From a virus (Duplodnaviria; Heunggongvirae; Uroviricota; Caudoviricetes), in the IMG/VR virus record IMGVR_UViG_2541047690_000002: 43,349 bases of DNA; one strand, 5' to 3'. Made by a program: the position numbers and the translations under genes. The stretch's first letter is position 1, and every line of letters begins with the position of its first letter. This document shows, piece after piece, positions 1,255 through 15,359 of this stretch. Under the pieces are notes generated by a model. That model was not told where the DNA came from. It was given only the letters and a program-made list of their open reading frames with translations, and did no database searches.

Positions 1255-1368
1255 ATAAAACCGGGTGATGCAAAAGTAGCCATTTGATTCACAAGGCCAT
1301 TGACGCATCGCCCGGTTAGTTTTAACCTTGTCCACCGTGATTCACGTTCGTGAACATGTCCTTTCAGG

Positions 1369-1444
1369 GCCGATATAGCTCAGTTGGTAGAGCAGCGCAT
1401 TCGTAATGCGAAGGTCGTAGGTTCGACTCCTATTATCGGCACCA
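1369..1444 (+). tRNA. thrW: tRNA-Thr (CGU anticodon), known prophage integration hotspot
   Basis: 76-nt sequence GCCGATATAGCTCAGTTGGTAGAGCAGCGCATTCGTAATGCGAAGGTCGTAGGTTCGACTCCTATTATCGGCACCA with acceptor stem, D-loop, CGT anticodon, T-loop GGTTCGA and 3' CCA; integrase gene starts 15 nt downstream. Confidence 0.9.
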
Positions 1445-1458
1445 TTAAAATCAATAAG

Positions 1459-2622
1459 TTACACATCATTAGTACCTTCCTTATTTTTTGACTGGGACAA
1501 ATTTGGGACCGATGGGTTCAGGATCGAGTCTATTTGCCGTGCGTGTTCGGTAAGGTGATTAGGTGCAAGGTGAGCATATCGACGAACCATTTCGATAGAC
1601 TCCCAGCCTCCCATTTCCTGTAACACTGACAATGGGACTCCGGCTTGAACCAGCCAACTTGCCCAGGTGTGTCTCAAGTCGTGAAATCTGAAATCATCAA
1701 TACCAGCCCGTCTCAGCGCCGCTTTCCAGGCTGTGTTTGCGTCATACCGCATCTTCCTTACTGTTGGCGCTTTCGTTCCGTCTGGTTTGGTACAGCTTTC
1801 CTTGTACACAAATACCCAACGGTGATGATTCCCGATTTGTTTTTTCAATACGCGACATGCAGTATCATTCAGCGCAACGCCAATTGCGCGGTTTGATTTA
1901 CTCTCTTCCGGGTTTATCCATGCCACCCGGCGCTGCATGTCTATTTGTTGCCATTCAAGGTTGATGATGTTCGAGCGTCTTAAGCCTGTTGCCAGTGCAA
2001 ATTCAACAACAGACTTTAATGGCTCCGGACATTCATCAATCAGCCTTTGTGCTTCATGGGGCTCCAGCCAGCGGATCCGTTTATTCTTTGGTTGAGGCAC
2101 TTTAATAATTGGTGCCTTATCCAGCATTTTCCATTCACGCTCTGCGGCTCTTAGTAGGGCTTTTATAAATGAAAGATGCGTAGCCTTCGTTGCAACAGAC
2201 GCTGGTTTTGGCTTGTATTCTGGAACAGGTTTCCCTTTTTTTCTGCATGCTTCTGCCCTGAGTTTCCAGTTTTCCTCATTACGCCGGTTCGTCATTTTCT
2301 GCATTGCTGAATAAATTTTTGATTCAGTAATGTCTCTTAGTTGCATTCCTGCGAAATGTTGAAGCCAGAATCCGATCCGGCTTTTGTCATCGTCCAGTGA
2401 TTTTTTATGTGCTTTCTCTTCAAGCCACCTGACACACGCTTCCTCGAACGTTATATCAGGTATTTCACCAAGTTTGCTGACCCGCCATGCTTCAGCCTTT
2501 AGCTTGTCATGGAGTTCTGTCGCCTGCCTTTTGTCCTTTGTTCCAAGAGACTGTTTAAATCTTTTACCGTTCGGCAATGTGAAACTGGCGTACCATATTT
2601 CACCTCTGCGGAAGAGTGACAT
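1459..2622 (-). CDS. int: Tyrosine-type site-specific integrase, P22-like
   Basis: 387-aa ORF; translation recalled as very close to phage P22 Int; C-terminal catalytic-domain signature HDLRHTWAS...RRYAHL (His-X-X-Arg and the Tyr nucleophile region); adjacent to tRNA. Confidence 0.9.
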
Positions 2623-2849
2623 TTTCTTTCCTCTGTTATGCCATCACCCGCGCTCACCTGGACAGTATGCAGCGGAGACTGAAGCGCCGCAATGCAGGCT
2701 TGTCGTGTTGTGAGGTAAGGAGATTTTAGTTTAGTGGGGTCTTTGCGTGTTGCCTGTAGGCGGCCTGTTCGTATCCAGTTGGTAGCGGTAGGTCTGGATA
2801 TCTTGAGAAACTGACAGGCCTCATCGAGTGTGAGGCTGTATGATTCCAT
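2499..2849 (-). CDS. xis: Excisionase, P22-like
   Basis: 116-aa product if started at the internal ATG ([31 protein letters not shown]...); resembles P22 Xis; the 3' end overlaps the int start by about 124 nt. The longer track ORF (start 2879) is probably an upstream extension. Confidence 0.7.
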
Positions 2850-3099
2850 GGTTACCTCTGCTTTTTGAACGCATGTCACGTAACTTCTTAATGTGTTCTG
2901 CCGTTTCGATCTCTTCTGCTATCCGATCTGCATCAGCTTTATTCACAGGTTCAAAGTCATGATTAAAGCGGAACATGCTGGCGATACATGTTCTGCCTTT
3001 TCGGATGTAGTGAACTTTGTTGTGGGTAGAACGCAGGATTTTGCAGGGAGTGCCGTGGTGGTCGACGTACCAGGTGTTAGGAAAAATGATTCTGAACAT
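2821..3099 (-). CDS. Hypothetical small prophage protein
   Basis: 92-aa ORF with GAGGTG Shine-Dalgarno about 6 nt upstream of ATG at 3099; no recognisable motif; overlaps xis start by 29 nt. Confidence 0.4.
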   Translation of the reverse strand: MFRIIFPNTWYVDHHGTPCKILRSTHNKVHYIRKGRTCIASMFRFNHDFEPVNKADADRIAEEIETAEHIKKLRDMRSKSRGNHGIIQPHTR

Positions 3100-3146
3100 T
3101 TTTACACCTCAGTTGGACGATGTTGAAATTTGCTGCTTTGAGGCCA

Positions 3147-3365
3147 TCACAATCCCCATTGTTTGTTCTTAAGTTCGATCTCCTCCTGGCAACTTGCACA
3201 AGTCCGACAACCCTGAACGGCCAGGCGTCTTCGTTCATCTATGGGATCGCCACACTCACAACAATGAGTGGCAGATATAACCTGGTGGTTCAGACGACGC
3301 ATTTTTATTGCTGTATTGCGCTGTAATTCTTCGATTTCTGATGCTGAATCAATGATGTCTGCCAT
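3147..3365 (-). CDS. TraR/DksA-family C4 zinc-finger protein
   Basis: 72-aa ORF with CCECG...CRTCASC four-cysteine arrangement typical of phage/plasmid TraR-like zinc fingers. Confidence 0.6.
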   Translation of the reverse strand: MADIIDSASEIEELQRNTAIKMRRLNHQVISATHCCECGDPIDERRRLAVQGCRTCASCQEEIELKNKQWGL

Positions 3366-3463
3366 CTTCCATTAATCCCTGAATTGTTGGTTAATACGCT
3401 TGAGGGTGAATGCGAATAATAAAAAAGGAGCCTGTAGCTCCCTGATGATTTTGCTTTTCATGT

Positions 3464-3679
3464 TCATCGCTCCTTAAAGACGCCGTTTAACATGCCGATC
3501 GCCAGGCTTAAATGAGTCGGTGTGAATCCCATCAGCGTTACCGTTTCGCGGTGCTTCTTCAGTACGCTACGGCAAATGTCATCGACGTTTTTATCCGGAA
3601 ACTGCTGTCTGGCTTTTTTGATTTCAGAATTAGCCTGACGGGCAATACTGCGAAGGGCGTTTTCTTGCTGAGGTGTCAT
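3464..3679 (-). CDS. Small early-left protein (lambda orf60a-like)
   Basis: Internal ATG start giving MTPQQENALRSIARQANSEIKK...; resembles a small ORF of the lambda b2/exo-proximal region from memory. Confidence 0.45.
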   Translation of the reverse strand: MTPQQENALRSIARQANSEIKKARQQFPDKNVDDICRSVLKKHRETVTLMGFTPTHLSLAIGMLNGVFKER

Positions 3680-3755
3680 TGAACAAGTCCCATGTCGGCA
3701 AGCATAAGCACACAGAATATGAAGCCCGCTGCCAGAAAAATGCATTCAGTGGTTG

Positions 3756-3947
3756 TCATACCTGGTCTCTCTCATCTGCTTCTGCTTTCGCCACCATCAT
3801 TTCCAGCTTTTGTGAAAGGGATGCGGCTAACGTATGAAATTCTTCGTCTGTTTCTACTGGTATTGGCACAAACCTGACTCCAATTTGAGCGAGGCTATGT
3901 GCCATCTCAATGCTCGTTCTTAACTCAACAGGAGATGCTTTGTGCAT
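3756..3947 (-). CDS. Small early-left protein (lambda orf63-like)
   Basis: 63-aa [26 protein letters not shown]...; position and length match lambda orf63. Confidence 0.5.
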   Translation of the reverse strand: MHKASPVELRTSIEMAHSLAQIGVRFVPIPVETDEEFHTLAASLSQKLEMMVAKAEADERDQV

Positions 3948-4108
3948 ACAGCTCCCCGTTTATTATTTATCTCCTCAGCCAGCCGCTGTGCTTTCAGGGG
4001 ATTTCGGGTAACAGAAAGGCCGGGAAATACCCAGCCTCGCTTTGTAACGGAGTAGACGAAAGTGATCGCGCCTACCCGGATATTATCGTGAGGATGCGTC
4101 ATCGCCAT
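3920..4108 (-). CDS. Small early-left protein (lambda orf61-like)
   Basis: 62-aa [24 protein letters not shown]... immediately downstream of exo, as lambda orf61. Confidence 0.5.
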
Positions 4109-4779
4109 TGCTCCCCAAATACAAAACCAATTTCAGCCAGTGCCTCGTCCATTTTTTCGATGAACTCCGGCACCATCTCGTCAAAACTCGCCATGTACTT
4201 TTCATTCCGCTCAATCACGACATAATGCAGGCCTTCACGCTTCATGCGCGGGTCATAGTTGGCAAAGTACCAGGCATCTTTTCGCGTCACCCACATGCTG
4301 TACTGCACCTGGGCCATGTAAGCCGATTTTATTGCCTCGAAACCACCGAGCCGGAACTTCATGAAATCCCGGGAGGTAAACGGGCATTTCAGTTCAAGGC
4401 CGTTGCCGTCACTGCATAAACCATCGGGAGAGCAGGCGGTGCGCATACTTTCGTCGTGATAGATGATCGGGGATTCAGTAACATTCACGCCGGAAGTGAA
4501 TTCAAACAGGGTTCTGGCGTCGTTCTCGTACTGTTTTCCCCAGGCCAGCGCCTTAGCATTAACTTCCGGAGTCACACCGGTGCAAACCTCAGCCAGCAGG
4601 GTGTGGAAGTAGGACATTTTCATGTCAGGCCACTTCTTTCCTGAGCGGGGCTTTGCTATCACGTTGTGAACTTCTGAAGCGGTGATGACGCCGAGCCGTA
4701 ATTTGTGCCATGCATCATCCCCCTGTTCGACAGCTCTCACGTCGATCCCGGTACGCTGCAGGATAATGTCCGGTGTCAT
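4099..4779 (-). CDS. exo: Lambda exonuclease (Red-alpha)
   Basis: 226-aa translation recalled as near-identical to lambda Exo ([40 protein letters not shown]...). Confidence 0.95.
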
Positions 4780-5561
4780 GCTGCCACCTTCTGCTCAGTG
4801 GCTTTCTGTTTCAGGAATCCAAGAGCTTTCACTGCTTCGGCCTGTGTCAGTTCTGACGATGCGCGAATGTCGCGGCGAAATATCTGGGAACAGAGCGGCA
4901 ATAAGTCGTCATCCCATGTTTTATCCAGGGCTATCAGCAGAGTGTTAATCTCCTGCATGGTTTCATCGTTAACCGGAGTGATGTCGCGTTCTGGCTGACG
5001 TTCTGCAGTGTATGCAGTATTTTCGACAATGCGCTCGGCTTCATCCTTGTCATAGATACCAGCAAATCCGAAGGCCAGACGGGCACACTGAATCATGGCT
5101 TTATGCCGTAACATCCGTTTGGGATGCGACTGCCACGGCCCCGTGATTTCTCTGCCTTCGCGAGTTTTGAATGGTTCGCGGCGGCATTCATCCATCCATT
5201 CGGTAACGCAGATCGGATGATTACGGTCCTTGCGGTAAATCCGGCATGTACAGGATTCATTGTCCTGCTCAAAGTCCATGCCATCAAACTGCTGGTTTTC
5301 ATTGATGATGCGGGACCAGCCATCAACGCCCACCACCGGAACGATGCCGTTCTGCTTATCAGGGAAGGCGTAAATTTCTTTCGTCCACGGATTAAGGCCG
5401 TACTGGTTGGCGACGATCAACAATGCGATGAACTGCGCATCGCTGGCATCACCTTTAAATGCCGTCTGGCGAAGAGTGGTGATCAGTTCCTGTGGGTCGA
5501 CAGAATCCATGCCGACACGTTCAGCCAGCTTCCCTGCCAGCGTTGCGAGTGCTGTACTCAT
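4776..5561 (-). CDS. bet: Recombination protein Bet (Red-beta, single-strand annealing)
   Basis: 261-aa translation recalled as near-identical to lambda Bet; 4-nt overlap with exo. Confidence 0.95.
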
Positions 5562-5566
5562 CCGTT

Positions 5567-5863
5567 TTATACCTCTGAATCAATATCAACCTGGTGGTGA
5601 GCAATGGTTTCAACCATGTACTGGATGTGTTCTGCCATGCGCTCCTGAAACTCAACATCGTCATCAAACGCACGGGTAATGGCTTTTTTGCTGGCCCCGT
5701 GGCGTTGCAAATGATCGATGCATAGCGATTCAAACAGGTGCTGGGGCAGGCCTTTTTCCATGTCGTCTGCCAGTTCTGCCTCTTTCTCTTCACGGGCGAT
5801 CTGCTGGTAGTGACGCGCCCAGCTCTGAGCCTCAAGACGATCCTGAATGTAATAAGCGTTCAT
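5567..5863 (-). CDS. gam: Host-nuclease inhibitor Gam (short GamS form)
   Basis: 98-aa translation [21 protein letters not shown]... matches lambda GamS. Confidence 0.92.
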
Positions 5864-5938
5864 GGCTGAACTCCTGAAAATGGCTGTGAAAAAATCGCCC
5901 GCGGAATGCCAGGCTGATTCGGAAAACAGGAAAGGGGA

Positions 5939-6229
5939 TTAGTGATTCAGACCGTTGCCGCGTCCGTCGAGAAAAACTTCCACGAGCAAGTCACGGGTAT
6001 AAGTGCGCTCAATGCCGCGATGCAGATAAAGTCGTCCGCGTAAATTAGCTGATGCAGTCCAGGTACCATCTTTGCGTTTGACCAGCATTCCTGGCATGAC
6101 CGCACCGCGATTAACGGTCTGCGTTCCGTAATGTTGATGAACCATAAAAACTCCTGCCCGTAAGCTGGGCTGCTGAACATATAAAGACTTCTGCGCGTAT
6201 TCAGGCGGTGGATGGCCGCCGGTTGTCAT
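5939..6229 (-). CDS. Hypothetical protein, first gene of the leftward early operon (kil/cIII position)
   Basis: 96-aa ORF with no recognised motif; an overlapping 77-aa ORF in another frame makes the true frame and start uncertain. Confidence 0.3.
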   Translation of the reverse strand: MTTGGHPPPEYAQKSLYVQQPSLRAGVFMVHQHYGTQTVNRGAVMPGMLVKRKDGTWTASANLRGRLYLHRGIERTYTRDLLVEVFLDGRGNGLNH

Positions 6230-6419
6230 AACTAAGCCGCCTCGTTGAAGCGACTAAGGTATGAAATGTTGAGTTGATTTCAGCTGGTCACACCGACGTT
6301 CACGCGTCCGTTTCATCCCTCGCACTCCCCGAAGCCTGCTGAAATTCAAGCTGCGGATCTAAGCGGTCATCGCAACGGTGAATCAGGTGGTTGCCGTATC
6401 GTTGTGTTGTTGCGATATG

Positions 6420-6500
6420 GTGATAATAGCTATTGCTATTGGTGATATCAATACTTATTGCTATTAGTTGATGTGTTTTGATATTAAATGTTTGATAGCA
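6420..6500. promoter_or_regulatory. Putative leftward operator/promoter region (OL/PL analogue)
   Basis: AT-rich stretch with reiterated TATTGCTATT and GATATCAAAACAC-type motifs that recur in the cI-cro intergenic region (8860..8969); lies upstream of the leftward early genes. Confidence 0.45.
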
Positions 6501-6588
6501 AAAAGAATTAATTTTGTGACTTGCATCGCATAGCGATAACTGAAGTGAGGTCGTGGTGGTTTTTTGAACGGTGTGTGATGAGGGGAGG

Positions 6589-6617
6589 GCAAAAGAAAAC
6601 CCGGCACGGTGGCCGGG
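6589..6617 (-). terminator. Intrinsic terminator downstream of the cI-linked cassette
   Basis: Minus-strand reading: hairpin CCCGGC-(6 nt loop)-GCCGGG at 6600..6617 followed by GTTTTCTTTTGC U-tract (6589..6599); abuts the stop codon of the 149-aa membrane-protein gene. Confidence 0.6.
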
Positions 6618-7067
6618 TTATTGTTCTTGATTGATCTTATCGAAGATATCATGACTTAATTTTTGCACATTTAGGAAATTTACTATGAAGAAGACAATTG
6701 CGTAAATTATTAATGTGAAAAAAAGTATTGAAGGAGAGAATTTTAGTATCAGGGATTTAAATTCAAAGCTGAACTCATACTCTTTTAAATATTCACTAAG
6801 CACAAGGCATAAAGTAGAAAGAGTGAAAAAGCGCAAAAAAGAATTTCGTATAGATACCAATTCTTTTCTGATAACTTTAACATAATTAATGTTTTTAATG
6901 CCAGACATGTTAAAAGTTACAATCAACCCTAACCCGATAGAAAACATTATGCCACAGACAGAATACAATGTAGAAATCAAAAACTGATCAGGCCTCCAAG
7001 CTAAAAATGATGGAAGCCCGATAGTAATTATCAGAACAATTAGCAAGCTAGCTATTTGTCGCTTCAT
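6618..7067 (-). CDS. Small four-helix integral membrane protein in the RexB position (candidate exclusion-system effector)
   Basis: 149 aa; four hydrophobic segments of about 20 residues (approx. residues 4-24, 32-52, 80-100, 113-134); markedly AT-rich codon usage; 20-nt overlap with the upstream gene; same strand and immediately downstream of cI. Confidence 0.6.
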   Translation of the reverse strand: MKRQIASLLIVLIITIGLPSFLAWRPDQFLISTLYSVCGIMFSIGLGLIVTFNMSGIKNINYVKVIRKELVSIRNSFLRFFTLSTLCLVLSEYLKEYEFSFEFKSLILKFSPSILFFTLIIYAIVFFIVNFLNVQKLSHDIFDKINQEQ

Positions 7068-8073
7068 TTTCTATCTCTTTTAAATATCTGCTCATTTCTT
7101 GAAATACCTCTTGTTCTACAAGCTTGCCTGAATCAGTAACCTCAATTGTTACAATTTTAATCTTAAGAAGATCTTTGCCTTTTATTTCTGAGCGACCATC
7201 ACTTCGTTTGAATACAATGTTATCAAGATCACTAACAGGTTTTAATGTTGCACCTAATAGTTTAGCATAACTATCTTCATCCATGCTCCTTGGTTTACTA
7301 AACTTTATCAACAGTTCAGCTGATACTATTTGATTGTCAATTATTTCTTTTAGATTTGGGAAATTTGGTACAGCTGATTTCAATGCATTTAAAACAGCGT
7401 GTGAAAGTTTTATTTTTGTATTTTTTTCTTCAATTTCTGATGGTGGCGATTTCATATCGGATGACTGAACCAATACTTCTTTTGGAAGAGGAGATGGATC
7501 TCTCACAGAAATTGATTTTATATCCTTAAGCTGAACTTTATTACCTTTAACAATCATCGGTGTGAATTCAATCATTTCATTCCCAACCAGCCAGCGTATA
7601 TAAGTTTGTAGAGATGATATAGTCCTATTCATCTGCAGATTGGTAACTAAATAATTATCACTTATACAGAAGTAGAAATGGTTTTTGCATACGACCTCTG
7701 TATCAATGTCAGCATTATGGAGATCACTAATTGTAAATGATTTTTTGTTAAAAAGTTGATCGGGAATCTTTTCAACTCCCTCGCTTGGGGCAATTCTAAC
7801 CATTGTACAAAAAACAGAATTACTGTTGTCTGATGTCTGATAGAACGATATCAAATCTTGTTCTTGCCTAAGATCGTCAGAGTTTAAAACCATGCAACGT
7901 TCTTTTACGGTAGATGAGTCAACTAGCTTTTGTAATAAAAGCTTTTTCGCGGGGCTAGATTTTTCTGTTAGATTATTGTTTTCTATCTTAAAAGCTCTTA
8001 ATTTCACTTGTTTAGGTTTATTATGTTTTTTATTTACAGAGCTGCTATTTTCACTATTCATAGAATCAACCAT
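7048..8073 (-). CDS. Hypothetical 341-aa protein in the RexA position (candidate sensor of a cI-linked exclusion system)
   Basis: ATG at 8073; AT-rich, Lys/Asn/Ser-rich product without recognisable catalytic motif; 93-nt gap from cI stop, co-directional with cI. Confidence 0.55.
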   Translation of the reverse strand: MVDSMNSENSSSVNKKHNKPKQVKLRAFKIENNNLTEKSSPAKKLLLQKLVDSSTVKERCMVLNSDDLRQEQDLISFYQTSDNSNSVFCTMVRIAPSEGVEKIPDQLFNKKSFTISDLHNADIDTEVVCKNHFYFCISDNYLVTNLQMNRTISSLQTYIRWLVGNEMIEFTPMIVKGNKVQLKDIKSISVRDPSPLPKEVLVQSSDMKSPPSEIEEKNTKIKLSHAVLNALKSAVPNFPNLKEIIDNQIVSAELLIKFSKPRSMDEDSYAKLLGATLKPVSDLDNIVFKRSDGRSEIKGKDLLKIKIVTIEVTDSGKLVEQEVFQEMSRYLKEIENEATNS

Positions 8074-8166
8074 TGATTATGTGTAGTTTTATAATGTAGT
8101 AAGCATCAAGTATTTTTATAATTTGAGTTTGGTTTATCACACAAACATTTAAACCAACTTGCTAAG

Positions 8167-8859
8167 TCATCCATGCTTTCTGTATGTCTGCGGCATGCTC
8201 CCAATAACTTTCCCGAAGATAAACACCCGGTTCATCTCGTCTTTCTCGATCGGGTCCCACGGTGAGTAGCTCTTGTTATCAGAGATAACCAGCAGCTTAT
8301 CCTTCATCATTTGCAGGCGCTTTACATGGGCTGTGTCGTCATACAGAAACGCATAGATACCATCACCGTCGAAAGATTTAACCGTGATATCAACGAACAG
8401 AAGATCACCTGGTTCGATCGTTCCTGACATGCTGTCACCACGCACGTTAATGATGCGGATATTTTCCGCCTTCCTGCCATCGAACATGTGACGAGCATCG
8501 TCAAACGAGTACTCAACCGAGCGTAGAACTTCTACAAACTCACGGTTGATTACACCCGGCCCGGCACTGACTTCTATATCAAGAACGTCAATCTTGAAGT
8601 ATTTTGAATGGCTGACAGCAGGCTTCCCTGATTGTTGACCGTCATTTCTCATCGGGCCTATGCCTGATGAGAGCCATTCTGTTCGAACACCCAATGCATT
8701 AGCTATTTCAACAATTTTTGTTGAGCCGCGCGCGTTGCCGCTTGTCAGTCTCCAGATTGTGGGTTGAGCTACGCCAGACGCCTTTGCAAGAGCGCCTTGA
8801 GACATTCCAGATTGTTCCATCGCTAGGTTTAAGCGATCAGCAAGAGTTTCTTTTTTCAT
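8167..8859 (-). CDS. cI: CI-type prophage repressor (HTH plus LexA-like S24 peptidase domain)
   Basis: N-terminal HTH (QGALAKASGVAQPTIWRL), C-terminal self-cleavage motifs (GDSMSGTI, serine nucleophile; downstream Lys); start placed at the first ATG (MKKETL...); the track ORF reaches 8895 via a TTG codon. Confidence 0.8.
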   Translation of the reverse strand: MKKETLADRLNLAMEQSGMSQGALAKASGVAQPTIWRLTSGNARGSTKIVEIANALGVRTEWLSSGIGPMRNDGQQSGKPAVSHSKYFKIDVLDIEVSAGPGVINREFVEVLRSVEYSFDDARHMFDGRKAENIRIINVRGDSMSGTIEPGDLLFVDITVKSFDGDGIYAFLYDDTAHVKRLQMMKDKLLVISDNKSYSPWDPIEKDEMNRVFIFGKVIGSMPQTYRKHG

Positions 8860-8969
8860 AAGTTTTAATTTATACGCTTGCGTATTGATAGTCAAAACAC
8901 GTTTTGCTATTGCTTGGATTAATACGCATTGCTATTATTCATTCATTGCAATACCAATAGGAATTGATA
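8860..8969. promoter_or_regulatory. Divergent cI/cro operator-promoter region (OR, PRM/PR analogue)
   Basis: Intergenic between divergent repressor and cro; contains TTGCTATTGC, CATTGCTATT and TGATAGTCAAAACAC repeats shared with the 6420..6500 region. Confidence 0.55.
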
Positions 8970-9197
8970 ATGACAAATCAAACCATTCAACTCGCAATCA
9001 GTATTACAGGTAGTCAAAAACGACTGGCAGATCTATGCGGTGTAGCCCAACCCACAGTTTGGCGTTGGCTACACGGTGGCGGAATTGATGCCCGCTATGT
9101 AATGAAAATTGTCTCAGCCACTGGTGGAAAGATTAAACCAGCAGATATTCGTCCCGACCTCGCACCATTGTTTAACGCGAGTAATTCTGCCGCCTAA
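8970..9197 (+). CDS. cro: Cro-like HTH regulator (YdaS-type)
   Basis: About 75 aa; HTH motif GSQKRLADLCGVAQPTVWRW and C-terminal RPDLAPLF typical of YdaS-like Cro proteins; divergent from cI. Confidence 0.7.
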   Translation: MTNQTIQLAISITGSQKRLADLCGVAQPTVWRWLHGGGIDARYVMKIVSATGGKIKPADIRPDLAPLFNASNSAA

Positions 9198-9221
9198 ACT
9201 GCGGCGTTAACTGATAAGGCA

Positions 9222-9767
9222 ATGACTATGCAACCACTTACATACCAACAGACTAGCGGATTTAGCCCGACTGCGGTGATAAATCGTTCTCAAATAAAAC
9301 AAGCTCCAGACCACGAAAAAATCCGTGATGCCGTCCGCGCCTGGTCGGCTGTAGATAATCAGGATGTCGTTGCCGCACTCATTGTGAATGAGTATCGGGA
9401 GCAGGGCGACGGCACCATCGATTTCCCTGATGATGTCAGCCGTGCACGCCAGAAGCTGTTCCGCTTCCTCGATAACAAATTCGATTCTGAAAAATACCGA
9501 AATAACGTGCGTGAACTGACCCCGGCAATTCTGGCGGTACTACCGCTGGAATATCGCGGTTACCTGGTTGAGCAGGATAGCTTCATGACTCGGCTGGCTG
9601 AAATGGAAAAGGAACTCAGTGAGGCAAAACAGGCTGTCATTCTCAACGCACCACGCCACCAGAAACTGAAGGAAATTAGTGAAGGTATTGTGTCGATGTT
9701 TCGTGTGGACCCGGATCTGGCTGGTCCATTGATGGCGATGGTTACCACCATGTTGGGGGCAATATGA
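9222..9767 (+). CDS. Hypothetical protein in the cII position (possibly YdaT-like regulator)
   Basis: 181-aa ORF between cro and O; assignment by position and weak recollection of YdaT-family proteins following YdaS-type Cro; no motif verified. Confidence 0.35.
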   Translation: MTMQPLTYQQTSGFSPTAVINRSQIKQAPDHEKIRDAVRAWSAVDNQDVVAALIVNEYREQGDGTIDFPDDVSRARQKLFRFLDNKFDSEKYRNNVRELTPAILAVLPLEYRGYLVEQDSFMTRLAEMEKELSEAKQAVILNAPRHQKLKEISEGIVSMFRVDPDLAGPLMAMVTTMLGAI

Positions 9768-9853
9768 CAGGCTCAGAAATGGCGAAAGCCGGTCTGCGGG
9801 AACAGAGCCGACTTTCAGGCGCAAATCGTAACGCACTCATTGCGGGAGGAATT

Positions 9854-10783
9854 ATGGCAAACACTGCTGAGATATTCAATTTTCCAGTGCCGGATGTGGC
9901 ACAAAAGGAGCCGCGCGTGGCAGATCTCGATGATGGTTATACGCGCATTGCAAATGAGTTGCTGGAAGCTGTGATGCTGGCCGGATTAACACAGCACCAG
10001 CTTCTGGTCTTCCTGGCTGTCATGCGCAAAACATATGGCTTTAATAAAAAACTGGATTGGGTGAGCAACGAGCAACTTTCCGAATTGACCGGGATATTGC
10101 CGCACAAGTGTTCTGCTGCAAAAAGCGTTCTGGTAAAGCGTGGGATTCTTATTCAGAGCGGGCGGAATACCGGCATTAATAATGTGGTCAGTGAATGGTC
10201 AACATTACCCGAATCAGGTAAGAAAAATAAAGTTTACCTGAAAGAGGTAAATTTACCTGAATCAGGTAAAAAAAGTTTACCCAAATCAGGTAAAGACGTT
10301 TACCCGAATCAGGTAAACACAAAAGACAAACTAACAAAAGACAATATAAAACCTTATTCGTCCGAGAATTCTGGCGAATCCTCTGACCAGCCAGAAAACG
10401 ACCTTCCTGTGGTGAAACCGGATGCTGCGATTCAGAGCGGCAGCAAGTGGGGGACAGCAGAAGACCTGACCGCCGCAGAGTGGATGTTTGACATGGTGAA
10501 GACCATCGCGCCATCAGCCAGAAAACCGAATTTTGCAGGGTGGGCTAACGATATCCGCCTGATGCGTGAACGTGACGGACGTAACCACCGCGACATGTGC
10601 GTGCTGTTCCGCTGGGCATGCCAGGACAACTTCTGGTCCGGTAACGTGCTAAGTCCGGCCAAACTCCGCGACAAGTGGACCCAGCTCGAAATCAACCGTA
10701 ACAAGCAACAGGCAGGCGTGACAGCCAGCAAACCAAAACTCGACCTGACAAACACAGACTGGATTTACGGGGTTGATCTATGA
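9854..10783 (+). CDS. O: Replication initiator protein O (lambda-type)
   Basis: Start at ATG 9854 with GGGAGGA SD; N-terminus MANTAEIFNF...VADLDDGYTRIANELLEA parallels lambda O; contains in-frame iteron-encoded repeats LPESGKK. Confidence 0.88.
   Translation: MANTAEIFNFPVPDVAQKEPRVADLDDGYTRIANELLEAVMLAGLTQHQLLVFLAVMRKTYGFNKKLDWVSNEQLSELTGILPHKCSAAKSVLVKRGILIQSGRNTGINNVVSEWSTLPESGKKNKVYLKEVNLPESGKKSLPKSGKDVYPNQVNTKDKLTKDNIKPYSSENSGESSDQPENDLPVVKPDAAIQSGSKWGTAEDLTAAEWMFDMVKTIAPSARKPNFAGWANDIRLMRERDGRNHRDMCVLFRWACQDNFWSGNVLSPAKLRDKWTQLEINRNKQQAGVTASKPKLDLTNTDWIYGVDL
10203..10317. repeat. Replication origin iterons (ori-lambda type) inside the O gene
   Basis: Four to five direct repeats of TTTACC(C/T)GAATCAGGTAAA spaced about 23 bp apart (10205, 10233, 10252, 10276, 10299), followed by an A-rich stretch (10318..10355). 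Confidence 0.85.
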
Positions 10784-11502
10784 AAAACATCGCCGCACAG
10801 ATGATTAACTTTGACCGTGAGCAGATGCGTCGGATCGCCAACAACATGCCGGAACAGTACGACGAAAAGCCGCAGGTACAGCAGGTAGCGCAGATTATCA
10901 ATGGTGTGTTCAGCCAGTTACTGGCAACTTTCCCGGCGAGCCTGGCTAACCGGGACCAGAACGAACTGAACGAAATCCGCCGCCAGTGGGTGCTGGCTTT
11001 CCGGGAAAACGGGATCGCCACAATGGAACAGGTTAACGCAGGAATGCGCGTAGCCCGTCGGCAGAATCGACCATTTCTGCCATCACCCGGGCAGTTTGTT
11101 GCATGGTGCCGGGAAGAAGCATCCGTTACCGCCGGGCTGCCAAACGTCAGCGAGCTGGTTGATATGGTTTACGAGTATTGCCGGAAGCGTGGCCTGTATC
11201 CGGACGCAGAGTCTTATCCATGGAAATCAAACGCGCACTACTGGTTGGTTACCAACCTGTACCAGAATATGCGGGCCAATGCGTTGACTGACTCGGAATT
11301 ACGGCGCAAGGCTGCCGATGAACTTGCCCATATGACTGCGAGAATTAACCGTGGTGAGGCGATTCCCGAGCCAGTTAAACAGCTTCCGGTTATTGGTGGT
11401 AAGCCGCTATCCCGTATACAAGGATTGGCAAAGTTGGCTGAGATTCGCGAGAAGCACGGACTGAGAAGACGTAAACAATTAACGGGAGTGAAGCTAACCT
11501 GA
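10780..11502 (+). CDS. P: Replication protein P (DnaB helicase loader)
   Basis: 240-aa translation recalled as near-identical to lambda P over most of its length (MKNIAAQMINFDREQMRRIANNMPEQYDEKPQ...); start overlaps O stop (ATGA). Confidence 0.92.
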   Translation: MKNIAAQMINFDREQMRRIANNMPEQYDEKPQVQQVAQIINGVFSQLLATFPASLANRDQNELNEIRRQWVLAFRENGIATMEQVNAGMRVARRQNRPFLPSPGQFVAWCREEASVTAGLPNVSELVDMVYEYCRKRGLYPDAESYPWKSNAHYWLVTNLYQNMRANALTDSELRRKAADELAHMTARINRGEAIPEPVKQLPVIGGKPLSRIQGLAKLAEIREKHGLRRRKQLTGVKLT

Positions 11503-11847
11503 ACTACCTTCAAGACACATAAAACCTTTCCCCCAGAAAATATAGTTCATCCTGCGGCATCAACCAGACCGTAAACATTCTGACAAAGCAGGGCGATCTG
11601 GTCGATGTCAGCAATATCTAGCGAACGATTCACTACCGATTGGTAACCGAAGAGGAAATCTCTTGGCACAAAAGCACCAATCAGATTTTCGATGATGGCC
11701 CCCAAGCCCGGTGATGACGCGAATTTTACTAGCCTACGAGAGGAACGGAGCATGAAGACAGCACCGAGCACAGTGTAACTATTCGATTTTTTTCTGTTTG
11801 ATTTTTCGACATACTACATTATATAGCTCGATATCCTTTCATTTTAC

Positions 11848-13053
11848 TTATTCAATTAACGGTACTTGTTTGTTGCAGAATACTAATATTGCATCTTGAG
11901 TAAGTTTTTTATGCATATGCTTTAGCGGCTCAATGTTAGTCTCGTAACCGAAAGTAGCGAAAAGAGTTGGTTCTATAATGAAATTTTCTTCATAAGCTTT
12001 TAGATCAAATGCTCTCTTTGCAATTAATCTAACTGCTTTCTTTCTAATGCGTGAATTATATCTATTCTCTATGCTAAGTTTAGCCATGTTTTCATCGATG
12101 TTGTTTTTTTGTTTTTTTAGTATAATTTGAATGTGATCATCATCAATTTGGCCATCTCTATATATATAATCAATGTCATAATTAAAATCAAAAAGCTGAG
12201 TGTCATTTACACCTTCAAGAAAAGGATTTGAAAATGGGCTCATGATCGGATCGAGTGATTTTTTATAAGTACTATTGCATTTAGTGCAGCTAGGAATTAA
12301 GTTAAATAAACTAAAGGAGATCAACGGATATTTGTACTTAGGTATGAAATGATCAAATGCTGGCCTGTAGCTAGTACCTGTATGGTCTTCTACTTGTTCA
12401 ATTTCTTCACTGTTGCAATATGGGCATATGCTAATGTCTAAAAAACTGTTCAATTGATACGCTGTTTCTCTATCAATAAGTGAGTATTTAAATATTTCAG
12501 AAATATTTTTAACCCATGATGGAAATAACTTAATGGTATTTTCCTTTAAAGGACCACCATTCTTGATACTTATAAGATTAAGAATCTTATCTCTTAAACT
12601 AGATAATTTTTGTGGTGAGAAATGTGTATTTAATATATCCTCAAGTATTAGGCTTTGTGTAGTTTGAGAGAAAGATGTGATTATTTTGATGGCATGTGCT
12701 AGTTCATTATAAACTATTTTTTTGTTTTCTTTTGTTTTTAAAGGTAATTGTAGGTTTGTTAATGGTTGTAAATTTAAGTGCCTTAAAAAATAATCAGGAG
12801 AATAGTACTCACACACAATTGGGTGTTTGTTGTATATTTTGATGATTATATTTTTTAATCGTTTGGGTTTTGAAAAAACTAATTTTCTGATAGTTTTTTT
12901 GTTGATTGTATTTAGAAACTCTACTTCATCGGGAGTAATGTTCAGTAACTTCCTCTGCTTCACGCGTTTATTAACTTTGCTTACTATTTTAGAAAAGGAT
13001 ATTTTTACATCAACATTGAAGTCTTTGTTTATTTTTATCATTTTTTTACTCAT
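11848..13053 (-). CDS. HNH (His-Me finger) motif protein, putative nuclease effector (PtuB-like)
   Basis: 401 aa; motif CPYCN-x20-DHFIPKYKYP-x10-NLIPSCTKCN at residues about 210-260 (nt about 12265..12426) matches the C-X2-C...DH...N...C-X2-C HNH pattern; extremely AT-rich; start overlaps upstream ATPase stop (ATGA). Confidence 0.6.
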   Translation of the reverse strand: MSKKMIKINKDFNVDVKISFSKIVSKVNKRVKQRKLLNITPDEVEFLNTINKKTIRKLVFSKPKRLKNIIIKIYNKHPIVCEYYSPDYFLRHLNLQPLTNLQLPLKTKENKKIVYNELAHAIKIITSFSQTTQSLILEDILNTHFSPQKLSSLRDKILNLISIKNGGPLKENTIKLFPSWVKNISEIFKYSLIDRETAYQLNSFLDISICPYCNSEEIEQVEDHTGTSYRPAFDHFIPKYKYPLISFSLFNLIPSCTKCNSTYKKSLDPIMSPFSNPFLEGVNDTQLFDFNYDIDYIYRDGQIDDDHIQIILKKQKNNIDENMAKLSIENRYNSRIRKKAVRLIAKRAFDLKAYEENFIIEPTLFATFGYETNIEPLKHMHKKLTQDAILVFCNKQVPLIE

Positions 13054-14837
13054 TTCTCAAAAGAATCTGTTTTATCATTGTTTTTGTTTAACTTCAGATC
13101 AATAAGATTTATGAGAAGTTTATTTTTAATTTGTGATAGTATGGTTTTTTGATGTTTATTTAAATTACCGTCATCTGAGTTTTTTATTATTGAGTTTAGA
13201 TAATTATGTGCGTGCTGTCCTATTGTAGCATCAATAAAAAAACCATTTATATATAATTCTGATATGGTTGCTCCGAAACCAAACTCTACTTTCTTAGTAT
13301 AGGTTCCTTGATTATGATCTCTTTCAAGATATATTATATCTGATGGCAAAAAATCACTTGCGAGTATAGGGGAGTGAGTTGTAAATACTAATTGAATATT
13401 TTTACTTTGTTTATATCTTAATGTTAAATCTATAATTTCTGAAAAAATAACTCGTTGCCATTCAGGGTGTAGATATAAATCACACTCATCTAATAATATT
13501 ATAATATTTTTGCTGTTGCTATGTTCTATAGAATCATAAAGTTGATTGAAAAGGTTTAATTTTGCAAACTCTCCTGAACTAAGTGAATCCCAACCATACT
13601 TAAATCGCGATGATACGCCATTTGGTAACCTATCAACTAATCTTATTAACTCCATAATCTGCTTTGGTTCTTCAACTGTGAAAGATAAACTATCAACTGG
13701 GTCTCTTGCTGTGTTTTCTAATATATCAGCTATATTACCTATAATGTCGGAGATATGTTCAGATAACATTTCTATTTTTGACTGAAATTTAACATTAACG
13801 TTAAATTCATCTAAAGTCTCTAATATAGTTTTTGCTGGATCTTTTTCTTCAAGATACGCGCGACACAAGCAAAATAAATAAACAGTCTCACATATGTCTT
13901 TAGGGATTTTTGATGTCTTGAGTAAATGCCATGTTATTGCAGGCAAAAGCATCAAGTAAATTATTTTGTGATATGAAAAGGTTGCGAGGAAATTTAATGA
14001 TCTTTCTTTGTTAAAAATAATGCTAATAATAAAATCTTCATCGTAATCTATCCCATGATTGAGTATATCCACAAGTGAAATACCTAAAGAATCTAAATCA
14101 CGTTCAATATATCTAGGGAGTTTATTGTTTTTAATTCTATCATTCAACGTATCAAAAAAGTATTCAATAGCTCCAAAAAGTCCTTTGTCACCAATATCAT
14201 TGTTTTTTATAATAGAATTTATTTTATATACTGGTGAGTTTTCTATTTCAAATTGAAATTTAGTATTAAGTCTTGATAAATTGTCTTTAGCCCATGAACT
14301 GTGGTCTGAAAATGAAATTAATTGCTTGAGTAATTTCTTATTGCGTGTTTTACTGCCTTGCAAAAAATATGACAGTGATAAATCTTTAGAAATCGAATCG
14401 TTTTTTTTCTTTTTTTGTCCAACTAACATACTTTTGAGGTCGATTGTGTTATTTATCTTTATTAGGTTGATTTTGTTTCTTCTAAAAAAATGTTCATTAT
14501 TATCAATCAGTTCCGTTTGCATTTTGGATAATATTACAGGAGGTTTGCAATTGCTTGTGATAATTATAAGTTTATCATTTTCATTCCAGATGCTATAACC
14601 GCTACCTTCAAAATCGTAAATAAAGCTACTAATGAAATCTAAAATTGATGACTTTCCAACACCATTTTTCCCTAAAATTAATGTACAGGGAATATTGCTA
14701 TAATAGTCACGACTTAAATCTTTCTTAGCAATTGTAAGGACGTTACCTTTATGGCTAAAGGTAAATTTACTTGAGGTGGGGAGGGACAGCTTATTTAAAC
14801 CTTTATAATTGTGGATATAAGTGTATATTAGTTCCAT
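13050..14837 (-). CDS. ABC-type/AAA ATPase (PtuA/AriA/OLD-like defense ATPase)
   Basis: 595 aa; Walker A GKNGVGKSS (residues 56-64), ABC-signature-like LSSGE, Walker B IIILLDECD and H-loop FTTHSP near the C-terminus; AT-rich. Confidence 0.7.
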   Translation of the reverse strand: MELIYTYIHNYKGLNKLSLPTSSKFTFSHKGNVLTIAKKDLSRDYYSNIPCTLILGKNGVGKSSILDFISSFIYDFEGSGYSIWNENDKLIIITSNCKPPVILSKMQTELIDNNEHFFRRNKINLIKINNTIDLKSMLVGQKKKKNDSISKDLSLSYFLQGSKTRNKKLLKQLISFSDHSSWAKDNLSRLNTKFQFEIENSPVYKINSIIKNNDIGDKGLFGAIEYFFDTLNDRIKNNKLPRYIERDLDSLGISLVDILNHGIDYDEDFIISIIFNKERSLNFLATFSYHKIIYLMLLPAITWHLLKTSKIPKDICETVYLFCLCRAYLEEKDPAKTILETLDEFNVNVKFQSKIEMLSEHISDIIGNIADILENTARDPVDSLSFTVEEPKQIMELIRLVDRLPNGVSSRFKYGWDSLSSGEFAKLNLFNQLYDSIEHSNSKNIIILLDECDLYLHPEWQRVIFSEIIDLTLRYKQSKNIQLVFTTHSPILASDFLPSDIIYLERDHNQGTYTKKVEFGFGATISELYINGFFIDATIGQHAHNYLNSIIKNSDDGNLNKHQKTILSQIKNKLLINLIDLKLNKNNDKTDSFEK

Positions 14838-15359
14838 TATATAACCAATCTCTTAAATATGAAAAAACATAATGGGGTGATAGGCGTATTTGAAAAATAC
14901 ACGCTACCGCCACCTAGCGTTAAGCTGGGAGTGTTATTTTTATATTTTACCCCAAGTATTTGTTTTATGCAATTGTATCATCACATCTTTTGAAAGTTTG
15001 CTTTCTAAATGTAATTGTAATTTTAAACGGGTTTAATTGTTTTAAAGTGTTTGGGTGATTTGTTTTTCGAGGTTGCCTTCATAAATTAAGAGATAAAAAC
15101 GTTGTAATGTATTTTTATATGAGTGAGCTAATAAATGAAATCTTGATTGAAAATTATAGGTTGGCGGTTACTTAAATTTGATTTTCCAAAATCAGATCGT
15201 CATAATTATCGCATCGAAGCCTGAACACCTCCGGTGACTTCTGCGCTAAACGGGGACGTTTATGCGCACATACAATCTAAACTCTCTTCTCCCTTCACAG
15301 ATGCAGAAATGCACCTGCGATTCTTTGCATCCAACGTTTGACCTCTGCGGAGGTGAAGC

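What the first reader, a model, noticed from the sequence alone, without database searches (positions are those of the whole stretch)
11503..11847. GC-normal remnant between P and the inserted ATPase/HNH operon
The 345 bp between the P stop and the HNH gene stop have phage-typical GC and contain a 74-aa minus-strand ORF (11547..11771) without start context. It may be the truncated 3' end of a gene displaced when the AT-rich operon was inserted, marking one insertion boundary; the other boundary would be the AT-rich to GC-normal transition near 15180.
Basis: inference. Interest (0 to 1): 0.2.

Follow-up and report, generated by a model that had tools for sequence, protein, structure and literature searches.

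The report
Dead ren gene beside defence cassette
The stretch between the phage replication gene P and the AT-rich ATPase/HNH defence operon is a decayed, full-length copy of the lambda gene ren on the plus strand; the 74-codon minus-strand ORF is only its antisense shadow, so the feature is ordinary, but it shows the defence operon moves between prophages together with this dead gene.

Summary
There are 345 bp between the P stop and the HNH stop, and a 74-aa minus-strand ORF lies at 11547..11771. Only 11503-11778 has normal GC (47.5%); 11779-11847 is AT-rich (27.5%), like the operon.

The interval is a gene remnant next to the operon's boundary, but the remnant is not the minus-strand ORF and it is not truncated. 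It is a full-length pseudogene of lambda ren on the plus strand (11478-11755). It has lost its start codon and carries a +1 frameshift, a net 16-nt deletion, a TGG>TAG nonsense codon and a -1 frameshift. The G>T change at 11480 that killed the ren start also removed the P stop, which lengthens P by 7 codons.

The minus-strand ORF is the antisense "shadow" of the ren frame. It is also open in intact ren genes, is not conserved in orthologous loci, and is no longer than chance allows.

Psi-ren and the last ~100 bp of P are inherited together with the ATPase/HNH (PADLOC PDC-M62, Septu-like) operon in Serratia and Morganella prophage remnants. One frameshift is shared with Serratia, and the sequence has drifted neutrally since. 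The mosaic block in this window therefore runs from about 11400 (inside P) to 15177/15178. The original operon/ren junction (about 11756-11779) is older. The 9-bp direct repeat at the boundaries is a chance match. Interest is low.

The parts
10780..11502 (+). Replication gene P (240 aa). The last 7 codons (11479-11499, LTGVKLT) are read-through into the dead ren gene.
   Evidence: ORF list. Pfam Phage_lambda_P on the identical product. Lambda P and Serratia P' end at the ATGA overlap, whereas the window has ATTA.
11400..11410 (.). Mosaic crossover inside P. To the left the sequence is lambda/E. coli-type P. To the right it belongs to the block inherited with the defence operon.
   Evidence: Megablast homology to more than 3000 E. 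coli P copies stops at window 11401-11409. Identity to lambda drops from 82-98% to 58-62% at about 11400, while identity to the Serratia module is 82% to the right of it.
11478..11755 (+). Psi-ren: a full-length pseudogene of lambda ren (phrog_142, 'Ren-like exclusion protein').
   Evidence: blastn finds 73% identity to annotated Ren genes on the plus strand. MAFFT alignment from start to stop. tblastn E = 9e-21. The frame-repaired translation hits phrog_142 at 2.3e-9 over profile positions 15-111 of 116, against 2.2e-35 for intact Ren.
11480..11480 (+). G>T substitution in the ATGA overlap. It turns the ren start ATG into ATT (11478-80) and the P stop TGA into TTA (11479-81).
   Evidence: The window reads CAATTAAC, the Serratia orthologue CAATGACC, and lambda GTATGACG.
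11511..11511 (+). +1 frameshift in psi-ren (CTT C AAG against CTG AAA). The Serratia copy has the same insertion.
   Evidence: Alignments: 49 nt against 48 nt from the start codon to CATAAAACC in both the E. coli and Serratia copies.
11540..11556 (+). Net 16-nt deletion in psi-ren. Its exact placement depends on the alignment, about 11547/11548. It is specific to the E. coli lineage.
   Evidence: Serratia retains this stretch.
11619..11621 (+). In-frame TAG replacing the conserved Trp codon TGG of Ren (VWRTVYY motif).
   Evidence: and the sequence.
11695..11696 (+). -1 frameshift in psi-ren (GATGA-TGG against AACGAGTGT). It is specific to the E. coli lineage.
   Evidence: The C-terminal PSPVMTRILLAYERNGA* lies in another frame.
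11752..11778 (+). 8-codon stub MKTAPSTV*, starting in an ATGA overlap with the ren stop (TGA 11753-55). It is the relic of the translationally coupled gene or ORF that followed ren. The ancient operon/phage junction lies at its end.
   Evidence: Sequence. Serratia has MKSASATV* with its stop at the same place. Intact relatives and lambda also have an ATGA-coupled ORF there. GC shifts from 52% to 27.5% at 11779.
11779..11847 (-). AT-rich 3' flank of the HNH gene, belonging to the operon. No terminator or significant structure was detected.
   Evidence: GC 27.5%. Conserved with the operon in Serratia and Morganella at a neutral rate. Terminator scan found 0 sites. Fold z-scores are -0.2 to -1.9. 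Alifold gives -7.5 kcal/mol with no covariation. An IS1 is inserted at 11848/11849 in one relative.
11547..11771 (-). RefSeq annotates its last 40 codons (11547-11669) as hypothetical protein WP_255402470.1.
   Evidence: Antisense frame 0 of intact Klebsiella ren is open for 94 codons and homologous (..VENLIGAL..VVNR..LLCQ..SLVDAG). The frame and length are not conserved in Serratia or Morganella. It has no hit in Pfam, PHROGs, NCBIfam or PADLOC. The codon-position pattern is flat. The annotation is shown.
11848..13053 (-). HNH-motif protein, PADLOC PDC-M62B (Septu PtuB-like).
   Evidence: PADLOC PDC-M62B at 1.2e-33 and PtuB at 2.7e-8. Pfam HNH at 0.0019, below the family cut-off.
13050..14837 (-). 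ABC-type ATPase, PADLOC PDC-M62A (Septu PtuA-like).
   Evidence: PADLOC PDC-M62A at 4e-44 and PtuA at 4.7e-19. Pfam AAA_21 and AAA_15.
14838..15177 (-). AT-rich upstream region of the operon, up to the right junction.
   Evidence: GC 29.4%. Homologous in Serratia to 15089 and in Morganella to 15177.
15178..15206 (+). Start of the conserved nin-region block (ylcH-like peptide, ybcN ...). It begins with a promoter-like TTGATT-17 nt-CATAAT.
   Evidence: Homology to more than 3000 E. coli prophage copies starts here. Both hexamers are invariant and the spacer varies across 4 cargo contexts.

Best explanation
The interval holds no working gene. It consists of three pieces. The first is a full-length, multiply disabled pseudogene of the lambdoid gene ren on the plus strand (11478-11755), in the canonical position directly after P. 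The second is an 8-codon relic of the ORF that used to follow ren (11752-11778). The third is 69 bp of AT-rich 3' flank of the HNH gene (11779-11847).

An AT-rich two-gene defence operon (ABC ATPase + HNH; PADLOC candidate system PDC-M62, Septu-like) was inserted between ren and the nin region in an ancestral lambdoid phage. Ren was already dead, through a +1 frameshift, before the E. coli and Serratia versions of this module diverged. Since then psi-ren has drifted neutrally and collected lineage-specific lesions. In the E. coli lineage, one G>T change in the ATGA overlap destroyed both the ren start and the P stop, adding 7 residues to P.

The unit [P 3' end - psi-ren - HNH - ATPase] has since been exchanged among lambdoid prophages. 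The inferred route is homologous recombination in P (crossover at about 11400 here) and in the conserved block that starts at 15178. The 74-aa minus-strand ORF is the stop-poor antisense frame of ren, not a gene.

Shown: the homology, the lesions, co-inheritance in three genera, the neutral substitution pattern, and the boundaries. Inferred: the order of events and the recombination route.
For: Ren homology on the plus strand:
- blastn finds 73% identity to annotated Ren genes in Klebsiella phages and 51 E. coli genomes.
- The alignment is end to end, from the start-codon position to the shared GCATGA stop.
- tblastn gives E = 9e-21 with in-frame stops.
- The repaired translation hits phrog_142 at 2.3e-9.

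Lesions.

Shadow ORF:
- The antisense frame is open and homologous in intact ren.
- 9.5% of shuffles give an ORF this long.
- The frame and length are not kept in Serratia or Morganella.
- It has no family hits.

Co-inheritance:
- Homology between window 11149-15089 and Serratia is continuous at 85%.
- Morganella has P' (11362-11457) fused to 11670-15177.
- The +1 frameshift is shared by the E. coli and Serratia copies, and Serratia keeps the ATGA overlap.

Neutral drift, E. coli against Serratia:
- Psi-ren is 76.8% identical with 10 indel events and the spacer is 75.6% identical.
- HNH is 86.9% and the ATPase 89.5% identical, with third-position identity of only 76-81%.
- Differences by codon position are flat in psi-ren (10:13:14), against 33:30:95 in HNH, 43:30:115 in the ATPase and 13:5:44 in P'.

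Crossover in P at about 11400. Right junction at 15177/15178.

Spread as a unit: the block is identical (0-1 SNP) in 10 prophage contexts. These differ in repressor, in O allele, and in whether rexAB is present.
Against: No intact copy of this particular ren allele was found. The closest intact genes are 73-74% identical, and the protein search returned nothing. Some differences counted as decay could therefore be allelic divergence. The placement of the 16-nt deletion depends on the alignment. No empty site was found, so the original operon/ren junction is located only to 11756-11779, by GC shift and loss of ren-region homology. That psi-ren has survived 15-25% neutral divergence without being deleted in two of three lineages is slightly unexpected for bacterial pseudogenes. 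A weak conserved inverted repeat (TATCG..CGAATAG) in the spacer remains unexplained.
Confidence: 0.88

Rival explanations
1. The 74-aa minus-strand ORF (or its 40-aa RefSeq version) is a real small gene, for instance a third component transcribed with the ATPase/HNH operon.
For: It lies on the operon's strand, 77 bp downstream of the HNH stop. Some gene callers report it at 74, 52 or 40 aa. The region is retained with the operon in three genera.
Against: Its sequence is explained as the antisense of ren, and intact ren genes have the same open, homologous antisense frame. In Serratia the N-terminal part is in a different frame with a stop. In Morganella only about 26 codons remain. Substitutions between E. 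coli and Serratia are flat across codon positions, 10:13:14. There is no Shine-Dalgarno sequence, the start is GTG, and 9.5% of shuffles give an ORF this long. It has no family hits. More distant operon relatives have nothing comparable there.
Confidence: 0.03
2. One reading: the remnant belongs to this resident prophage, and the AT-rich operon was inserted in situ, displacing or truncating a gene. On this model 11503-11847 marks the recent insertion boundary.
For: GC shifts sharply at about 11779 and at 15177. The same slot holds other cargo in other prophages: SIR2, or emrE-ybcK-ybcL-ybcM. A 9-bp direct repeat TTTGATTTT sits at 11797 and 15177.
Against: Psi-ren and the P 3' end accompany the operon in Serratia and Morganella at the same divergence as the operon, with a shared frameshift. 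The P sequence switches ancestry at about 11400. Ren is full-length, not truncated. The left copy of the repeat reads TAAAATTTT in Serratia and TAGAACTTT in Morganella. A shared 9-mer arises in 7% of shuffles. No transposase or integrase lies in the cassette.
Confidence: 0.05
3. The decayed ren DNA is retained because it now has a non-coding role. It might be a 3' UTR or terminator for the operon, a buffer against convergent pR read-through transcription, or a homology arm that lets the operon recombine into new lambdoid prophages.
For: It has persisted through about 23% divergence in E. coli and Serratia. The block always travels together. The crossover within P at about 11400 shows that the flanking phage DNA was used for exchange.
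Against: It diverges at the neutral, third-position rate with many indels. Morganella has lost two thirds of it. An IS1 separates it from the operon in one strain. No terminator, significant fold or Rfam family was found. More distant operon relatives lack it.
Confidence: 0.07

Closest known systems
Lambda ren (Ren, 96 aa; PHROG phrog_142 'Ren-like exclusion protein'), the first gene after P in the pR operon
   Same: It has the same position (directly after P, starting in an ATGA overlap with the P stop in the Serratia orthologue and in lambda). It is on the same strand and has the same length. Motifs are recognisable throughout: NYLKTHKT, INQ..NIL.KQG, RT.HYRL.TEEEI, KSTNQIF, P.M.R.L..Y.
   Different: It is not an intact gene. 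The start codon is lost, and there are two frameshifts plus a net 16-nt deletion and a nonsense codon. The sequence is 73% identical to the Klebsiella/E. coli allele WP_012542626.1 and about 63% identical to lambda ren. It has evolved without codon constraint since before the E. coli/Serratia split.
renD and other decayed genes of the cryptic lambdoid prophage DLP12 (P' - ren - emrE - ybcK - ybcL - ybcM - ylcH - ybcN - ninE - ybcO - rusA - ylcG - quuD - nmpC)
   Same: The backbone to the right of 15178 is the same (ybcN, ninE, ybcO, rusA, ylcG, quuD, porin). The cargo slot between ren and the ylcH/ybcN block is also the same.
   Different: In the DLP12-type element examined (O157 EC4115) ren is annotated as intact (100 aa) and the cargo is emrE-ybcK-ybcL-ybcM. 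Here ren is dead and the cargo is a convergently oriented ATPase/HNH operon.
Septu (PtuA ATPase + PtuB HNH) and the PADLOC candidate system PDC-M62
   Same: The neighbouring two-gene operon matches the PDC-M62A and PDC-M62B models, and more weakly PtuA and PtuB. Like many defence systems it is carried as prophage cargo.
   Different: This concerns the neighbour, not the interval itself. PDC-M62 is a computational candidate, and no defence phenotype was tested here. The only paper found that mentions it is a survey of the Bacillus cereus group.
Shadow (antisense) ORFs of coding sequence, a known cause of spurious gene calls
   Same: The long open frame lies exactly antisense to a former coding frame. 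Its homologous counterpart is open in intact relatives. Gene callers treat it inconsistently.
   Different: Here the sense gene is itself dead, so annotation pipelines have no competing sense call. One pipeline has given the shadow ORF a protein accession.

Membership tests
Ren (lambda ren / phrog_142) | Sequence homology to Ren over the whole length | tested here: met
   DNA alignment from start to stop. tblastn E = 9e-21 over Ren residues 1-82, with the C-terminus in a second frame. phrog_142 at 2.3e-9, covering profile positions 15-111 of 116.
Ren (lambda ren / phrog_142) | Position directly downstream of P on the same strand, coupled by an ATGA overlap | tested here: met
   The start-codon position 11478-80 overlaps the former P stop. 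The ATGA is intact in the Serratia orthologue and in lambda, and mutated to ATTA here.
Ren (lambda ren / phrog_142) | Intact open reading frame of about 96-100 codons | tested here: not met
   There is no plus-strand ORF of 40 aa or more in 11503-11847. The gene has ATT in place of ATG, a +1 frameshift, a net 16-nt deletion, a TAG and a -1 frameshift. It is therefore a pseudogene, not a member gene.
Ren (lambda ren / phrog_142) | Function: lets the phage escape Rex exclusion (from my own knowledge of the lambda literature; ren is listed as non-essential in PMC10695390) | not testable with these tools
   No assay was possible. Some relatives that carry this psi-ren do encode RexA/RexB.
Protein-coding gene on the minus strand (74-aa ORF) | Reading frame and length conserved in orthologous loci | tested here: not met
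   In Serratia the N-terminal part is in another frame and ends in a stop. In Morganella only about 26 codons remain.
Protein-coding gene on the minus strand (74-aa ORF) | Third-codon-position excess of substitutions | tested here: not met
   Differences between E. coli and Serratia are 10:13:14 by ren codon position. The antisense third position corresponds to sense position 1 and has the fewest changes. Flanking genes show 33:30:95 and 43:30:115.
Protein-coding gene on the minus strand (74-aa ORF) | Ribosome-binding site, family membership, length beyond chance | tested here: not met
   The start is GTG with no Shine-Dalgarno sequence, and 9.5% of shuffles reach 74 codons. There are 0 hits in Pfam, PHROGs, NCBIfam and PADLOC.
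Transposon-type insertion with target-site duplication | Direct repeats flanking the inserted DNA, conserved among copies | tested here: not met
   TTTGATTTT occurs at 11797 and 15177, and 7% of shuffles share a 9-mer or longer. The left copy is not conserved in Serratia or Morganella.
Transposon-type insertion with target-site duplication | Transposase or recombinase within the element | tested here: not met
   Only the ATPase and HNH ORFs exceed 110 aa between 11779 and 15177, and neither has transposase or integrase domains.
PDC-M62 / Septu-like defence operon (neighbour) | Adjacent ABC-type ATPase and HNH-motif genes matching both component models | tested here: met
   PDC-M62A at 4e-44 over residues 1-570. 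PDC-M62B at 1.2e-33 over residues 5-348. The genes overlap by 4 bp.
PDC-M62 / Septu-like defence operon (neighbour) | Protection against phage infection | not testable with these tools
   It is a candidate system only, and no experiment was done here.

The most novel reading that the evidence does not exclude
The loss of ren may not be incidental. Ren is an anti-exclusion, winged-helix-like protein made from the same early transcript. It might interfere with, or be toxic alongside, the adjacent ATPase/HNH system. On that reading, modules carrying this operon persist only with ren dead or absent, and the decayed ren/P DNA survives as the homology arm that carries the operon into new lambdoid prophages. 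In the six operon contexts examined, no intact ren lies next to the operon. It is a pseudogene in E. coli, Serratia and Morganella and absent in Enterobacter, Pantoea and Citrobacter. Prophages with other cargo in the same slot keep ren intact. The sample is small and not phylogenetically independent, because one frameshift is shared.
Probability: 0.08. Interest if true: 0.5.

Novelty: new member of a known kind. Interest (0 to 1): 0.15.

Why it matters
The main value is for annotation and for reading prophage mosaics.
1. A hypothetical protein in RefSeq (WP_255402470.1) and the variable 40/52/74-aa calls in other assemblies are shadow-ORF artefacts of an unannotated ren pseudogene.
2. The 240-aa P protein of this widespread module (indexed in 967 blocks of the assembly collection) carries a 7-residue tail. 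That tail was created by the same point mutation that killed ren.
3. The dead gene serves as a phylogenetic marker. It shows that this candidate defence operon spreads among lambdoid prophages of at least three enterobacterial genera as a unit with flanking phage DNA, not by repeated independent insertion. The visible GC boundary is therefore an old junction, while the recent recombination boundary lies about 380 bp further left, inside P.

None of this is surprising for lambdoid phages, which are known to be mosaics.

Tried and rejected
1. A closer, intact copy of this ren allele was not found.
   - E. coli complete genomes, distant mode: only the 6 identical copies plus genes at 72-73% identity.
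   - IMG/VR pattern scan: 53 loci, of which 5 are identical and the rest 72.6-74.4% identical.
   - The 5.8-billion-protein search with the repaired translation returned no candidate.
2. No empty site was found. Exact-pattern scans of IMG/VR for the stub and for the left junction returned only the same 5 contigs. All complete E. coli genomes with psi-ren also carry the operon.
3. A scan of GTDB species genomes with the HNH protein found no close relative through the 8-mer patterns. Phage GenBank records contain no operon homologue at the DNA level.
4. The target-site-duplication idea (TTTGATTTT x2) was rejected, because the left copy is not conserved in Serratia or Morganella.
5. No terminator or structured RNA was found in the spacer or in psi-ren.
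   - The consensus scan found no sites.
   - Fold z-scores are between -0.2 and -1.9.
   - Alifold of three orthologues is weak and shows no covariation.
   - Rfam gave only a sub-threshold archaeal snoRNA match, 20.7 bits against a gathering score of 50.
6. Pfam and NCBIfam have no model that detects Ren, even for the intact control. Only PHROGs was informative.
7. Polymorphism among E. coli copies could not be used to test for coding, because 10 contexts differ by 0-1 SNP in the interval.
8. One coordinate in my first notebook entries was wrong. The nonsense codon was noted as 11628-30, and the correct position is 11619-21.

Full report
**Context.** The window is an E. coli lambdoid prophage.
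- The early genes are a repressor (8167-8895, minus strand), a cro-like gene, a YdaT-like gene, O (9764-10783) and P (10780-11502).
- Next comes an AT-rich minus-strand pair: an ATPase (13050-14837) and an HNH protein (11848-13053).
- After that is the DLP12-type late-early block: ybcN, ninE, ybcO, rusA, ylcG, quuD and a porin.
- The ATPase and HNH proteins match the PADLOC candidate system PDC-M62 (A at 4e-44, B at 1.2e-33) and, more weakly, Septu PtuA/PtuB.

**Observation.** The interval 11503-11847 is 345 bp, and the minus-strand ORF 11547..11771 (74 aa, GTG start, no Shine-Dalgarno sequence) is there. The GC statement needs refining. 11503-11778 is 47.5% GC. 11779-11847 is 27.5%, indistinguishable from the operon at 28.9%. 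An ORF of at least 74 codons appears in 9.5% of dinucleotide-preserving shuffles of the interval.

**What the GC-normal part is.**
- A distant blastn of the interval against phage records hit only genes annotated Ren, at 73% identity. The hits were on the plus strand, the strand of P.
- The same hit appears in 51 E. coli genomes.
- A MAFFT alignment with two intact ren genes runs from the start-codon position to a shared GCATGA stop.
- tblastn with Ren proteins gives E = 9e-21, with in-frame stops in the subject.
- Pieces of Ren lie in all three plus-strand frames.
- The frame-repaired translation matches phrog_142 'Ren-like exclusion protein' over almost the whole profile at 2.3e-9. An intact Ren used as control scores 2.2e-35.

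So 11478-11755 is a full-length ren pseudogene. Its lesions, relative to intact ren genes, are:
- ATG>ATT at 11478-80.
- A +1 frameshift at 11511.
- A net 16-nt deletion near 11547.
- TGG>TAG at 11619-21.
- A -1 frameshift at 11695/6.

The TGA stop at 11753-55 is retained.

In lambda and in the Serratia orthologue, P and ren overlap in ATGA. Here the G at 11480 is a T. That single change removed both the ren start and the P stop, so P reads 7 codons further (LTGVKLT) to 11500-02.

After the ren stop there is an ATGA-coupled 8-codon stub, MKTAPSTV* (11752-11778). It is the relic of the next ORF. GC falls at 11779.

**The minus-strand ORF.**
- The exact antisense frame of intact Klebsiella ren is open for 94 codons and is homologous to the 74-aa ORF (..VENLIGAL..VVNR..LLCQ..SLVDAG). 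The lambda antisense frame is open for 72 codons. The ORF is therefore a shadow of the ren frame.
- It has no hit in Pfam, PHROGs, NCBIfam or PADLOC.
- Gene callers treat it inconsistently, calling it 74, 52 or 40 aa or omitting it, on sequence that is identical or differs by a single SNP.
- RefSeq carries its last 40 codons as WP_255402470.1.

**Where the block comes from.**
- Only 6 of 5426 complete E. coli genomes carry the interval, and all 6 also carry the operon.
- In the larger assembly collection, however, the 240-aa P is indexed in 967 blocks.
- Ten contexts were read. They differ in repressor, in O allele and in whether rexAB is present. All have the same P - psi-ren - HNH - ATPase - ybcN arrangement, with 0-1 SNP in the interval. 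One has an IS1 inserted at 11848/9.
- Homologues of the HNH protein occur in Serratia (84% aa), Morganella (75-78%), Enterobacter (67%), Citrobacter and Pantoea (65%) and Atlantibacter (59%).
- In Serratia, DNA homology to the window is continuous from 11149 (inside P) through psi-ren and the operon to 15089, followed by a ybcN fragment.
- In Morganella, a P fragment (11362-11457) is fused to 11670-15177. The fusion is at an AAGCAC microhomology and deletes most of ren. It is followed by 15297-15359.
- The Serratia copy has the same +1 insertion (CTT C AAG) as the window. It retains the ATGA overlap and the stretch deleted in E. coli. It also has lesions of its own: a TAA at codon 5, a TGA after the Trp codon, and a 15-nt deletion.

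Ren was therefore already dead in the common ancestor of the E. coli and Serratia modules, and each lineage has decayed independently since.

**Neutral drift.**
- Between E. coli and Serratia, psi-ren is 76.8% identical with about 10 indel events, and the spacer is 75.6% identical.
- HNH is 86.9% and the ATPase 89.5% identical. Their third-codon positions are only 76% and 81% identical.
- Differences by ren codon position are flat, 10:13:14. In HNH they are 33:30:95, in the ATPase 43:30:115, and in P' 13:5:44.
- Nothing constrains either strand of psi-ren.
- By contrast, the older divergence between psi-ren and the Klebsiella allele is third-position biased (18:17:38), like lambda against Klebsiella ren (24:21:51). 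The allele was thus a distinct, functional ren before it died.

**Boundaries.**
- Right: homology to more than 3000 E. coli prophage copies begins at 15173-15178. Four different cargos abut the same point: this operon, a SIR2 protein, ybcM of the emrE-ybcK-ybcL-ybcM set, and another. Morganella shares the junction.
- Left: the old operon/phage junction lies between the ren stop and the GC drop, 11756-11779, and is common to all three genera.
- The boundary of the exchanged block in this window is further left. Homology to other E. coli P genes stops at 11401-11409. In 50-bp windows, identity to lambda P falls from 82-98% to 58-62% at about 11400, while identity to Serratia is 82% to the right of that point.
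- The 9-bp direct repeat TTTGATTTT (11797 and 15177) arises as a 9-mer or longer in 7% of shuffles. Its left copy reads TAAAATTTT in Serratia and TAGAACTTT in Morganella. It is not a target-site duplication.
- More distant operon relatives sit in the same slot with no ren remnant. In Pantoea the HNH stop is 16 nt from the P stop. In Enterobacter the gap is about 200 nt with no Ren similarity.

**Non-coding function.** None was detected. The terminator and promoter scan found no sites. No fold is significant. Alifold is weak and shows no covariation. Rfam gave only a sub-threshold chance match.

**Literature.** Ren is the gene after P in the pR operon and is followed by tR2 (PMC3640518). It is listed as non-essential, as is the nin region (PMC10695390, PMC8022706). 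That ren mutants are sensitive to Rex exclusion is my own recollection of the lambda literature and was not checked here. PDC-M62 appears in only one paper of the library, a defence-system survey.

**Verdict.** The finding is real and is largely explained. It is an unannotated ren pseudogene plus the operon's AT-rich 3' flank. The ORF that drew attention is an antisense artefact. The useful by-product is that the dead gene shows the defence operon travelling between enterobacterial lambdoid prophages as a unit with flanking phage DNA. Interest is low (0.15). It is a new member of a known kind.

Noticed in passing
window 15178-15206 (+): The conserved nin-region block begins exactly at the cargo junction with a sigma-70-like TTGATT - 17 nt - CATAAT. 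Both hexamers are invariant and the spacer varies across four prophages with different cargo. The Morganella copy lacks 26 nt, including the -35 hexamer. This could be a promoter that keeps ylcH/ybcN...Q transcribed whatever cargo lies upstream.
   Followed up: partly
L010 (GCA_031020845.1) 7125-7822, equivalent to window 11848/11849: In one E. coli relative an IS1 is inserted right at the HNH stop codon, between psi-ren and the operon. Both operon genes are still called at full length.
   Followed up: partly
L002 (strain 90-9280) 6346-8921; L011 (ETEC-2264) 7069-8261: In some of the six complete genomes the HNH gene is annotated shorter or split (322 aa + 53 aa against 397-401 aa), and the ATPase is annotated at 1374 nt. 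The DNA is 99.9% identical with a 1-nt length difference. The operon may be inactivated by a frameshift in some strains.
   Followed up: no
L012, L013, L017, L018, 1972-3275: Several prophages carrying this identical dead ren encode RexA/RexB next to the repressor. In lambda, Ren is said to protect the phage from Rex exclusion, so the combination of rexAB with psi-ren may affect how well the prophage grows after induction.
   Followed up: no
L005 (E. coli SRY157) 1756-4455: A prophage with the same repressor, cro and YdaT genes has a truncated O, no P and no ren. A 643-aa SIR2-family protein occupies the same slot and ends at the same 15177/15178 junction. This is another example of the slot acting as a defence-cargo hotspot.
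   Followed up: no
window 11780-11835 (both strands); L077 7210-7265; L080 7212-7270: A short inverted repeat (..CTATCG.. / ..CGAATAG..) in the AT-rich spacer is present in the E. coli, Serratia and Morganella copies. Its loop is 30-45 nt long and poorly conserved. The consensus fold is weak (-7.5 kcal/mol) and shows no covariation.
   Followed up: partly
L077 (Serratia marcescens) 2686-9628: The Serratia copy of the module is a stranded fragment (P' - psi-ren - HNH - ATPase - ybcN') next to icd, which is a classical lambdoid attachment site. It is bordered by IS3-family transposases. About 1.7 kb next to it, up to icd, has no called gene.
   Followed up: no
L008 (lambda J02459) 1168-1250: Directly after the lambda ren stop there is an ATGA-coupled 26-codon hydrophobic ORF (MTIYITELITGLLVIAGLFIWGRGKS) that spans the tR2 hairpin and ends in an ATGA overlap with ninB. 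It is not annotated in the record and occupies the same position as the 8-codon stub in the window.
   Followed up: no
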